In this document: positions 2,591 through 3,833 of the stretch, in pieces
Layout of the letters: each line of letters starts with the position of its first letter
Position numbering within the stretch: the first letter of the stretch is position 1
Source of the DNA: a virus
Lineage: Duplodnaviria; Heunggongvirae; Uroviricota; Caudoviricetes
Length of the DNA stretch: 64,000 bases
IMG/VR virus record: IMGVR_UViG_3300037418_001222
Reading direction: 5' to 3' (one strand)
Translations under genes and position numbers: made by a program
The notes under the pieces: generated by a model
Database searches by the model: none
The model's input: only the letters and a program-made list of their open reading frames with translations
Told to the model about the DNA's origin: nothing

Positions 2591-2664
2591 TGGAGGCGGG
2601 CCAGGATTTGAACCTGTCCGGAGGGGTATGAGCCCAACATGCTACCTGCTTACAATAGCCCGCA
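2591..2664 (-). tRNA. Initiator-like tRNA-Met(CAT), atypical
   Basis: Unpaired 1:72 (T:C), three G-C pairs next to the CTCATAC loop, TTCAAAT T-loop, CCA; T-stem one pair short. Confidence 0.6.
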
Positions 2665-3424: not shown

Positions 3425-3425
3425 A

Positions 3426-3504
3426 TGGCACGCCCTCATGGATTCGAACCACGGTCTCTCCTTTGTTTCCGTCAGGAGCGTCCTAGCCACTAGACGAAGG
3501 GCGT
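3426..3504 (-). tRNA. Glu/Asp-type tRNA body with an aberrant 11-nt anticodon loop (tRNA-like, anticodon undetermined)
   Basis: Acceptor ACGCCCT/AGGGCGT, G73, CCA; D-arm TTCGTCTAGTGGCTAGGAC; arm CTCCT-GACGGAAACAA-AGGAG. Confidence 0.75.
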
Positions 3505-3514
3505 ACATTAAAAT

Positions 3515-3753: not shown

Positions 3754-3833
3754 TGGAGCCCTAGACAGGAGTCGAACCTGCATGTGTTCCAGTTACCTTT
3801 CAACTGGTTCGTAGCCAGTGGGGATACTAGGGC
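3754..3833 (-). tRNA. Non-canonical tRNA-Arg(ACG)-like RNA lacking a D-arm in the normal position
   Basis: Acceptor GCCCTAG/CTAGGGC plus T-CCA; GCAGG-TTCGACT-CCTGT T-arm; ACTGG-CTACGAA-CCAGT arm directly after a 7-nt linker; D-loop-like TAACTGGA 3' of the anticodon arm. Confidence 0.65.

What the first reader, a model, noticed from the sequence alone, without database searches (positions are those of the whole stretch)
3754..3833. Arm-rearranged tRNA-Arg(ACG)-like RNA with a built-in conformational switch
Seen: perfect acceptor stem, CCA and T-arm, but no D-arm after position 7. Instead TATCCCC leads straight into an Arg-type arm ACTGG-CTACGAA-CCAGT, and a D-loop-like TAACTGGA lies 3' of it. 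CCAGTT can alternatively pair with the downstream AACTGG (CCAGTT-GAAAGGT-AACTGG), excluding the anticodon hairpin. Inference: a tRNA mimic with swapped arm order that may still form the D/T elbow. It could be a decoy for anticodon nucleases, synthetases or TadA, or a regulatory RNA. I recall similar sequences in other large phages but no assigned function.
Basis: partly seen in the sequence, partly recalled or inferred. Interest (0 to 1): 0.7.

Follow-up and report, generated by a model that had tools for sequence, protein, structure and literature searches.

The report
Phage arginine tRNA with permuted core
This 80-base phage gene is very probably a working arginine tRNA (anticodon ACG) whose inner segments are joined in a different order from the textbook cloverleaf, a layout shared by over 150 distinct phage sequences, missed by tRNA finders, and not described in any paper I could find.

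Summary
On the minus strand, 3833 to 3754 has a 7-bp acceptor stem, U8 A9, an Arg-type anticodon arm (loop CUACGAA), a D-loop-like UAACUGGA 3' of it, a T arm and an encoded CCA. There is no D hairpin.

It is not a one-off. I collected 159 distinct relatives from phage contigs and isolates. They include Streptomyces, Microbacterium, Rhodococcus, Mesorhizobium, Xanthomonas, Stenotrophomonas and crAss-like phages. All share a covarying 3-bp long-range helix that encloses the anticodon arm. I read the layout as a tRNA core with segments 10-21 and 22-47 swapped.

Anticodons are only Arg (ACG, UCG, UCU, CCU) or Ile (UAU, GAU). The base after GG is A in 100 of 105 Arg members, matching the A20 ArgRS determinant. 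Ile members have U there and always discriminator A73.

Permuted and canonical genes with the same anticodon exclude each other (ACG p=2.5e-4). CCA encoding follows that of neighbouring tRNA genes.

It shows no covariation, so a conserved switch or decoy is not supported.

Seven literature searches found no description. Earlier notes of this scan report the same family on other DNA. Charging and decoding are inferred, not shown.

The parts
3827..3833 (-). Acceptor stem, 5' strand (G1-G7, GCCCUAG)
   Evidence: Pairs perfectly with 3758-3764. All 7 pairs show compensatory changes in relatives.
3824..3826 (-). U8 A9 U10 connector
   Evidence: U8 and A9 are invariant in all aligned relatives.
3821..3823 (-). 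5' strand of the long-range helix D* (C11-C13). By topology it is the equivalent of canonical D-stem nt 23-25.
   Evidence: In this copy C12 and C13 pair with G38 and G37. In relatives all three pairs covary. Pair 11:43 of alignment A5: CG 49, AU 20, UA 4, GC 2, UG 1, 0 unpaired.
3803..3819 (-). Anticodon arm ACUGG-CUACGAA-CCAGU; anticodon ACG at 3810-3812
   Evidence: The Rfam tRNA alignment places it as the anticodon arm. The stem covaries. The loop has U33 and A37 A38 and only Arg or Ile anticodons across the family.
3798..3802 (-). UGAAA linker between the anticodon stem and the D* 3' strand (conserved NGAAA)
   Evidence: Conserved in most members. Its role, possibly that of variable-loop nt 44-46, is inferred.
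3796..3797 (-). 3' strand of helix D* (G37 G38). By topology it is the equivalent of canonical D-stem nt 10-12.
   Evidence: Lies immediately 5' of the conserved UAA. Covaries with nt 11-13 in relatives.
3788..3795 (-). D-loop-like UAACUGGA (read as U13 A14 A15 C16 U17 G18 G19 A20)
   Evidence: UAA and GG are nearly invariant. The base after GG is A in 100 of 105 Arg members and U in 52 of 53 Ile members.
3782..3787 (-). Linker ACACAU ending in a U48-like base
   Evidence: Length varies from about 3 to 20 nt among relatives. The final AU is invariant. The A15-like/U48-like combination is A/U in 152 members, with G/C twice, G/U three times and G/G once.
3765..3781 (-). T arm GCAGG-UUCGACU-CCUGU
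   Evidence: Aligned as the T arm by Rfam. The stem covaries.
3758..3764 (-). Acceptor stem, 3' strand (CUAGGGC)
3754..3757 (-). Discriminator U73 and genomically encoded CCA
   Evidence: All 18 neighbouring tRNA genes also encode CCA. The family follows its neighbours' convention: 56 of 56 encode CCA where neighbours do, 4 of 57 where they do not.
3789..3807 (-).
   Evidence: Present in the MFE of this sequence: -22.4 against -20.4 kcal/mol for the tRNA-like fold. No covariation in the family.

Best explanation
The gene encodes a functional elongator tRNA-Arg(ACG) of a phage-borne family with a permuted core.

The acceptor stem, T arm and anticodon arm are standard. The strand that normally forms the 3' half of the D stem comes directly after U8 A9 and runs into the anticodon stem. 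The strand that normally forms the 5' half of the D stem, followed by the D loop (A14, A15, G18, G19, A20), comes after the anticodon arm. A variable-length linker then ends in a U48-like base before the T stem. Canonical blocks 10-21 and 22-47 are therefore swapped.

The short D*-helix stacks on the anticodon stem as the D stem does. The GG can meet the T loop. The molecule can then adopt the usual L shape with a different backbone path.

It is probably transcribed with the neighbouring tRNAs and trimmed by the usual tRNA processing enzymes. It is probably deaminated at A34 by TadA, charged by the host ArgRS through C35, G36 and the A20-like A, and used to read CGU/CGC/CGA.

Shown here: the anatomy, the conservation, the covariation, the identity-rule signatures and the replacement of canonical isoacceptors. 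Inferred: the 3D fold, processing, charging and decoding.
For: 1. Family size. There are 87 copies from the first pattern scan and blastn. Covariance-model hits over two scans gave 159 distinct sequences.
2. Structure. 95.8% and 94.1% of cells are paired, and 0 of 500 shuffles reach the observed covariation. The long-range helix has compensatory changes in all three pairs. At least 10 Watson-Crick combinations appear in a sequence-anchored table that was not fitted to pairing.
3. Anticodons. An anticodon-agnostic pattern gave only UAU 43, ACG 26, GAU 17, UCU 11, UCG 7 and CCU 2.
4. Identity rules track the anticodon class. Arg members have A after GG in 100 of 105. Ile members have U in 52 of 53 and discriminator A in 53 of 53. 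A20, C35 and G/U36 define Arg identity, and A73 and A35 belong to Ile identity (PMC9976931).
5. In 75 non-redundant loci with at least 8 canonical tRNAs, permuted and canonical genes of one anticodon exclude each other. ACG: 0 of 35 against 12 of 40, p=2.5e-4. UCU: p=0.012. GAU: p=0.006.
6. Streptomyces phage Mildred21 has tRNAs for all 20 amino acids but only one canonical Arg gene (CCU). Permuted ACG, UCG and UCU genes complete the set.
7. CCA encoding follows the neighbours: 56 of 56 and 4 of 57.
8. The window copy lies 1 nt upstream of tRNA-Val in a co-oriented cluster of at least 18 tRNAs.
9. U8, A9, A14-like, A15/U48-like, G18 G19-like and the UUCGA T loop are invariant.
Against: - No RNA, charging or ribosome data exist for any member.
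- In this copy the D* helix has only two G-C pairs (C11 faces U). Nearest-neighbour energies favour the alternative hairpin by 2 kcal/mol.
- Its discriminator is U, whereas A/G73 is the stated Arg determinant; 20 of 105 Arg members have U.
- Some phages carry a canonical gene with the same anticodon beside the permuted one: Zooman, L047 and L031, and Mildred21 for Ile GAU. So redundancy, or a second role, is possible.
- Sampling was by patterns and by a model built from the family. The contigs are related and were only partly read, so the p-values are rough.
Confidence: 0.72

Rival explanations
1. It is a tRNA mimic, not a decoder. It would act as a decoy or sponge for anticodon nucleases, TadA or ArgRS, or as a substrate for a non-ribosomal aminoacyl-tRNA-dependent process. 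The unusual core would keep it off the ribosome.
For: The anticodon stem-loop is a perfect Arg(ACG) loop. A few phages carry a canonical gene with the same anticodon next to it. Phages are known to counter tRNA-cleaving defences with their own tRNAs (own knowledge; retron Eco2 cuts host tRNA-Arg among others, PMC12916289).
Against: A nuclease decoy would need only the anticodon loop. Yet the A20-like base and the discriminator track the anticodon class. Permuted genes are mutually exclusive with canonical genes of the same anticodon and complete otherwise full tRNA sets.
Confidence: 0.13
2. It is a riboswitch-like RNA that toggles between the anticodon hairpin and the CCAGUU/AACUGG hairpin.
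For: In this sequence the alternative hairpin is in the MFE and is 2 kcal/mol more stable than the tRNA-like fold. It appears in the MFE of 12 of 80 members.
Against: Across 80 distinct members the alternative pairs are no better kept than in shuffles (67.0% against 68.6%; 488 of 500 shuffles are as high) and show no compensatory changes. When the anticodon stem changes, as in CCAAG or CCGAG, the downstream AAYUGG does not follow. The tRNA-like fold is the more stable one in 71 of 80 members. The partial complementarity follows from two separately conserved motifs, CC of the stem and GG of the D-loop-like segment.
Confidence: 0.05
3. It is a decayed or rearranged tRNA-Arg pseudogene with no function.
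For: ARAGORN does not call it. Rfam calls it only marginally.
Against: There are 159 distinct relatives in phages of at least three host phyla, with compensatory changes in every helix. Invariant tertiary-contact bases are kept. The nearest isolate, DLP6, keeps the permuted form.
Confidence: 0.02
4. It is a working tRNA whose rewired core was selected as an anti-defence trait. It would escape host, or phage-encoded, tRNA-targeting nucleases or modification enzymes that read the D arm or core of tRNA-Arg and tRNA-Ile, while still being charged and decoded.
For: The family is nearly restricted to phage tRNA arrays: 4 family hits in one genome each of 185,579 species, all inside dense tRNA arrays, against well over 150 viral contigs. 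It spreads across unrelated phage groups. Mildred21 also encodes an RNA ligase, a polynucleotide kinase and a tRNA nucleotidyltransferase.
Against: No nuclease specific for Arg plus Ile tRNAs is linked to it here. No conserved protein partner was sought systematically. A neutral origin followed by spread with mobile tRNA clusters fits equally well.
Confidence: 0.25

Closest known systems
Canonical class I elongator tRNA-Arg(ACG) of bacteria and phages (Rfam RF00005 cloverleaf)
   Same: 7-bp acceptor stem, U8, anticodon arm with loop CU-ACG-AA, T arm with UUCGA, discriminator plus CCA, a GG motif followed by an A20-like A, and a position inside a tRNA gene cluster.
   Different: No D hairpin between nt 9 and 26. 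The two D-stem strands flank the anticodon arm. The D-loop-like segment follows the anticodon arm and leads through a linker into the T stem. ARAGORN misses it, and RF00005 reaches its threshold only by deleting the D arm.
D-arm-lacking mitochondrial tRNAs (for example metazoan mt tRNA-Ser(AGY) and nematode mt tRNAs; reviews PMC7609411, PMC4013460)
   Same: No D hairpin after the acceptor stem. These mitochondrial tRNAs are still used in translation.
   Different: The mitochondrial forms have lost the D arm and the D/T-loop contacts and are flexible. Here the D-stem-like helix, the A14/A15-like bases and G18 G19 are all kept but rewired, and the host system is bacterial.
Circularly permuted tRNA genes of Cyanidioschyzon merolae and some archaea
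   Same: The gene order of tRNA segments differs from the cloverleaf order.
   Different: In those genes the 3' half precedes the 5' half, and processing through a circular intermediate restores a canonical mature tRNA. Here the termini are normal and the permutation is internal, so the mature RNA itself must be non-cloverleaf.
Engineered D-arm-less 'mini HisT' accepted by E. coli HisRS, EF-Tu and the ribosome (PMC11551756)
   Same: Shows that bacterial translation tolerates a tRNA without a D hairpin.
   Different: It is artificial and truncated rather than permuted. [quoted passage not shown]
tRNA-like domains of bacterial Y RNAs (YrlA, RF02553)
   Same: tRNA mimicry, including a T-arm-like element; found in some phages that encode Ro.
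   Different: The match is 11.9 bits against a gathering score of 69. YrlA has a Ro-binding stem and no anticodon or identity signature.

Membership tests
Canonical cloverleaf tRNA (Rfam RF00005; ARAGORN model) | 7-bp acceptor stem, discriminator and 3' CCA (encoded or added) | tested here: met
   GCCCUAG/CUAGGGC, U73, CCA.
Canonical cloverleaf tRNA (Rfam RF00005; ARAGORN model) | 5-bp anticodon stem with a 7-nt loop carrying U33 and a purine at 37 | tested here: met
   ACUGG-CUACGAA-CCAGU.
Canonical cloverleaf tRNA (Rfam RF00005; ARAGORN model) | 5-bp T stem with a 7-nt loop UUCRANY | tested here: met
   GCAGG-UUCGACU-CCUGU.
Canonical cloverleaf tRNA (Rfam RF00005; ARAGORN model) | D hairpin (stem 10-13:22-25 closed by the D loop) between nt 9 and nt 26 | tested here: not met
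   The RF00005 alignment deletes 15 model positions to 4 nt and inserts 18 nt after the anticodon arm. ARAGORN makes no call here or on any of 87 copies.
Canonical cloverleaf tRNA (Rfam RF00005; ARAGORN model) | Score at or above the curated gathering threshold | tested here: inconclusive
   Not listed in the gathering run. Scores 30.1 against 29 only with lax filters on 201 nt. The tRNA-Sec model gives 29.1 against 47.
Canonical cloverleaf tRNA (Rfam RF00005; ARAGORN model) | Aminoacylation and use in decoding | not testable with these tools
   Only indirect evidence: identity signatures, exclusivity with canonical isoacceptors and CCA concordance.
   R1 scores it at 90.7 bits. In this copy there are 2 G-C pairs plus a C/U mismatch.
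   ACG with GGA.
D-arm-lacking mitochondrial-type tRNA | D arm replaced by a short unstructured connector, with loss of the G18 G19 / T-loop contacts | tested here: not met
   A D-loop-like UAAYUGGA and a covarying D-stem-like helix are present.
Circularly permuted tRNA gene (Cyanidioschyzon type) | 3' half upstream of the 5' half, with termini inside the gene and a bulge-helix-bulge at the junction | tested here: not met
   The acceptor 5' and 3' strands sit at the two ends of the gene.
Y RNA-like YrlA (RF02553) | Match to the family model at its gathering score | tested here: not met
   11.9 bits against 69, E=10.

The most novel reading that the evidence does not exclude
The L-shaped tRNA fold has a second natural backbone wiring. 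Phages of many lineages use permuted-core tRNAs for Arg and Ile. These are charged by host class Ia synthetases and read by the ribosome. The rewiring was selected because it makes them invisible to host, or phage-encoded, factors that recognise the canonical D arm of these tRNAs.
Probability: 0.2. Interest if true: 0.95.

Novelty: new variant of a known kind. Interest (0 to 1): 0.85.

Why it matters
The cloverleaf is treated as universal outside mitochondria. A 2024 paper states that all known bacterial tRNAs adopt it (PMC11551756).

A widespread, conserved family keeps every tertiary-contact base but joins the segments in another order. That would show that the tRNA L shape does not depend on cloverleaf connectivity.

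It would give structural biology and genetic-code engineering a natural alternative scaffold, one possibly orthogonal to D-arm-reading enzymes.

It would also correct phage annotation. These genes are unannotated or mislabelled as Phe, Val or 'OTHER', so Arg and Ile decoding capacity in phage tRNA sets is undercounted.

Finally, it raises a testable question: why do phages, and only for Arg and Ile, keep this build?

Tried and rejected
- Megablast of the region against phage records found nothing. Only word-11 blastn found relatives.
- No whole genome is held for the window, so the phage's full tRNA set could not be listed.
- The MAFFT alignment of the family misplaces the 3' strand of the long-range helix. 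I used a sequence-anchored table and model-based alignments instead.
- RNAalifold on A4 did not predict the 3-bp helix on its own. The helix rests on explicit pair counts.
- I rejected the GenBank-style reading that the true anticodon lies in the second region ('Phe gaa', 'Val aac'). That segment (NGAAAGG) is the same in Arg and Ile members. The first hairpin's loop varies exactly at positions 34-36, together with class-specific identity bases.
- I rejected tRNA-Sec (29.1 against 47 bits) and YrlA (11.9 against 69 bits).
- Promoter and terminator scans gave nothing above background.
- Seven literature searches and checks of two reviews found no description. The library lacks most subscription journals.
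- No RNA 3D prediction was available, so the fold is argued from known tRNA tertiary contacts only.

Full report
**What is there.** The feature lies on the minus strand of the window, inside a co-oriented cluster of at least 18 tRNA genes. The host sequence is a T4-like myovirus fragment. It encodes a portal protein, a tail sheath and tail fibres. Its best sheath match is Stenotrophomonas phage DLP6 at 51% amino-acid identity, followed by Caulobacter Cr30 and Sinorhizobium phiM12. GC content is about 0.40.

Read 5' to 3' from 3833 to 3754, the RNA has these parts:
- a perfect 7-bp acceptor stem
- U8 A9
- UCCCC
- an anticodon arm ACUGG-CUACGAA-CCAGU with anticodon ACG
- UGAAAGG
- UAACUGGA
- ACACAU
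- a T arm GCAGG-UUCGACU-CCUGU
- discriminator U and an encoded CCA

The next gene, tRNA-Val, starts 2 nt after the CCA.

ARAGORN does not call it, and the Rfam gathering run does not list it. With lax filters RF00005 reaches 30.1 bits against a threshold of 29. It does so by deleting the D arm and inserting 18 nt after the anticodon arm.

**It is a family.** Word-11 blastn found 76-86% identical copies in several phage groups: Streptomyces phages, Rhodococcus phage Trina, Microbacterium phages and Mesorhizobium phage Cp1R7A-A1. In GenBank these copies are unannotated or labelled tRNA-Phe(gaa), tRNA-Val(aac) or tRNA-OTHER.

A pattern scan of IMG/VR gave 77 loci. Together with the isolates this makes 87 copies and 67 distinct sequences with the same layout. 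A covariance model built from them (R1) scores family members at 40-91 bits and canonical tRNAs at 38 bits or less.

In all I hold 159 distinct sequences.

Further isolates carrying the family are Xanthomonas jumbo phages XacN1 and Xoo-sp13, Stenotrophomonas CM1 and RAS14, DLP6, a crAss-like phage, a 462-kb uncultured phage, and at least 77 Streptomyces phages.

In one genome each of 185,579 prokaryote species, the first pattern found only four members. All four lie inside dense phage-like tRNA arrays. The other six hits were tRNA-Sec or unrelated sequence, which shows that the pattern itself does not force an Arg anticodon.

**The missing piece of anatomy.** The three bases after U8 A9 N pair with the three bases immediately 5' of the conserved UAA. 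A table anchored only on sequence landmarks shows at least ten Watson-Crick combinations: AAC/GUU, ACC/GGU, CAG/CUG, CCC/GGG, CCG/CGG, CGC/GCG, CGG/CCG, CUC/GAG, GCC/GGC and UCC/GGA.

On the model-based alignments the whole structure is 95.8% and 94.1% paired. None of 500 shuffles reaches the observed covariation, and registers slid by one column fall to about 50%.

In the second set the pattern fixed two of the three 3' bases and left the third free. The free pair is CG 49, AU 20, UA 4, GC 2, UG 1 and never unpaired.

In the window copy this helix has only C12-G38 and C13-G37.

**Reading of the topology (inference from established tRNA tertiary structure).** The 5' strand of this helix runs into the 5' strand of the anticodon stem, exactly as canonical nt 22-25 run through 26 into 27-31. 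The 3' strand follows the anticodon stem and is itself followed by U-A-A-Y-U-G-G-A. That matches canonical 10-13 followed by A14 R15 Y16 Y17 G18 G19 N20.

The order is therefore:
- acceptor 5' strand
- 8, 9
- [22-25]
- 26
- anticodon arm
- linker
- [10-13]
- [D loop]
- linker ending in a U48-like base
- T arm
- acceptor 3' strand

The three new junctions are 9 to 22, 43/44 to 10, and 21 to 48. Each joins residues that are neighbours in the canonical core, where the known contacts are 9 with 12:23, 26 with 44 next to 10:25, and 8:14:21 next to 15:48.

All bases needed for those contacts are invariant or nearly so. These are U8, A9, A14-like, G18 G19-like, the UUCGA T loop, and an A15-like/U48-like pair. 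That pair is A/U in 152 members, G/C twice, G/U three times and G/G once. The linker before U48 varies from about 3 to 20 nt, as a variable loop would.

**Is it a working tRNA?** Direct evidence is absent. Five indirect lines agree.

1. Anticodons. Under the anticodon-blind pattern only UAU (43), ACG (26), GAU (17), UCU (11), UCG (7) and CCU (2) occur. These are Arg and Ile only. UCU to UAU is a single change at position 35.
2. Identity rules. Arg identity is defined mainly by A20, C35 and position 36, with A/G73. Ile shares A73 and A35 with Val and Met (PMC9976931). In the family the base after GG is A in 100 of 105 Arg members but U in 52 of 53 Ile members. The discriminator is A in all Ile members. 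This also supports reading GGA as G18 G19 A20.
3. Isoacceptor replacement. In 75 non-redundant loci with at least 8 canonical tRNAs, a permuted gene and a canonical gene of the same anticodon avoid each other. For ACG the counts are 0 of 35 against 12 of 40 (p=2.5e-4). For UCU, p=0.012; for GAU, p=0.006. Mildred21 has tRNAs for all 20 amino acids but only one canonical Arg gene (CCU). Permuted ACG, UCG and UCU genes complete the set.
4. Several contigs hold two or three permuted genes with different Arg anticodons.
5. CCA encoding. Permuted genes encode CCA in 56 of 56 cases where the neighbours do, and in 4 of 57 cases where the neighbours do not.

These lines fit a charged, decoding tRNA better than a decoy, which would need only the anticodon loop.

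Exceptions exist. Zooman, L047 and L031 have a canonical gene of the same anticodon nearby. Mildred21 has both canonical and permuted Ile(GAU).

**The proposed switch.** In this sequence CCAGUU(G) can pair with (U)AACUGG. RNAfold puts that hairpin in the MFE. It is 2 kcal/mol better than the tRNA-like fold, at -22.4 against -20.4.

Across 80 distinct relatives, however, these six pairs are formed in 67.0% of cells against 68.6% in column shuffles. There is no compensatory change. The tRNA-like fold wins in 71 of 80 members.

The complementarity is a by-product of two separately conserved motifs. I treat it as a possible misfolding trap in this copy, not as a designed switch.

**Comparison with the known.** The nearest kind is the canonical tRNA-Arg. 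The element fails the D-hairpin criterion and so is not a cloverleaf.

It differs from mitochondrial D-armless tRNAs, which lost the D arm and the elbow contacts (PMC7609411). It differs from circularly permuted tRNA genes, whose mature product is canonical. It is not tRNA-Sec or YrlA by score.

[quoted passage not shown] Seven full-text searches found no description of this family. The library lacks most subscription journals.

After I had reached this reading (stated), the scan's own notebook showed that other agents had reported the same Arg/Ile family on other DNA. Those notes agree with this reading but are not independent evidence.

**Limits.**
- Sampling used two hand-made patterns and a model built from their hits.
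- The contigs are related to one another.
- The loci are partial, so absences are provisional and the p-values are rough.
- The model-fitted alignments lean towards the model structure. The sequence-anchored table and the free pair are the less biased evidence.
- The 3D argument rests on textbook contacts, not on a model.

**Verdict.** The element is a member of an undescribed, widespread family of permuted-core phage tRNAs, here tRNA-Arg(ACG).

Noticed in passing
window 3425-3508 (-): A tRNA-Glu-like gene. It has a 7-bp acceptor stem, a D arm GUCU-AGUGGCUA-GGAC, a T arm and an encoded CCA. Its 5-bp anticodon stem closes an 11-nt loop GACGGAAACAA without U33. ARAGORN and the Rfam gathering run both miss it, and blastn finds no match in the phage collection.
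   Followed up: partly
window 2594-2664 (-): A sub-threshold tRNA match (RF00005 25.8 bits against 29) that ARAGORN does not call. It is a possible further divergent tRNA in the cluster.
   Followed up: no
L216:1501-1590 (Stenotrophomonas phage DLP6, KU682439.2 111158-111247): The nearest isolated relative carries a permuted tRNA-Arg(ACG) with a 14-nt longer linker between the GG motif and the T stem. It is unannotated and lies between tRNA-Val and tRNA-Asp.
   Followed up: partly
L095:3704-3780 (Streptomyces phage Mildred21, MF155946.1 73703-73779): An unannotated permuted tRNA with anticodon GAU (Ile), between a nucleotidyltransferase gene and an FtsK-like gene. It is conserved in 77 Streptomyces phages, with compensatory anticodon-stem changes (UCUGU/ACAGU against UCACU/AGUGU). 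The same phage also has a canonical tRNA-Ile(gat).
   Followed up: yes
L001:301-376, L003:301-379, L005:297-375: GenBank labels permuted Arg genes as tRNA-Phe(gaa) in Mildred21, tRNA-Val(aac) in Yaboi and tRNA-OTHER in Trina. Most other records leave them unannotated.
   Followed up: yes
L087, L088, L090, L091 (Hoeflea MAG, Rhizobium rosettiformans, Chthonomonadaceae MAG, Pseudaminobacter soli): Family members occur in bacterial assemblies, but only inside dense arrays of 8-20 tRNA genes that look like phage or prophage tRNA islands. Two of them sit on contigs of 0.39 and 1.0 Mb.
   Followed up: partly
alignments A4 and A5, first pair of the anticodon stem: The outermost anticodon-stem position (27:43 equivalent) is a conserved U/U mismatch in most members (unpaired in 34 of 80 and in 70 of 79). 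Many members therefore have a 4-bp stem plus U-U next to the CU / UNGAAA internal loop.
   Followed up: no
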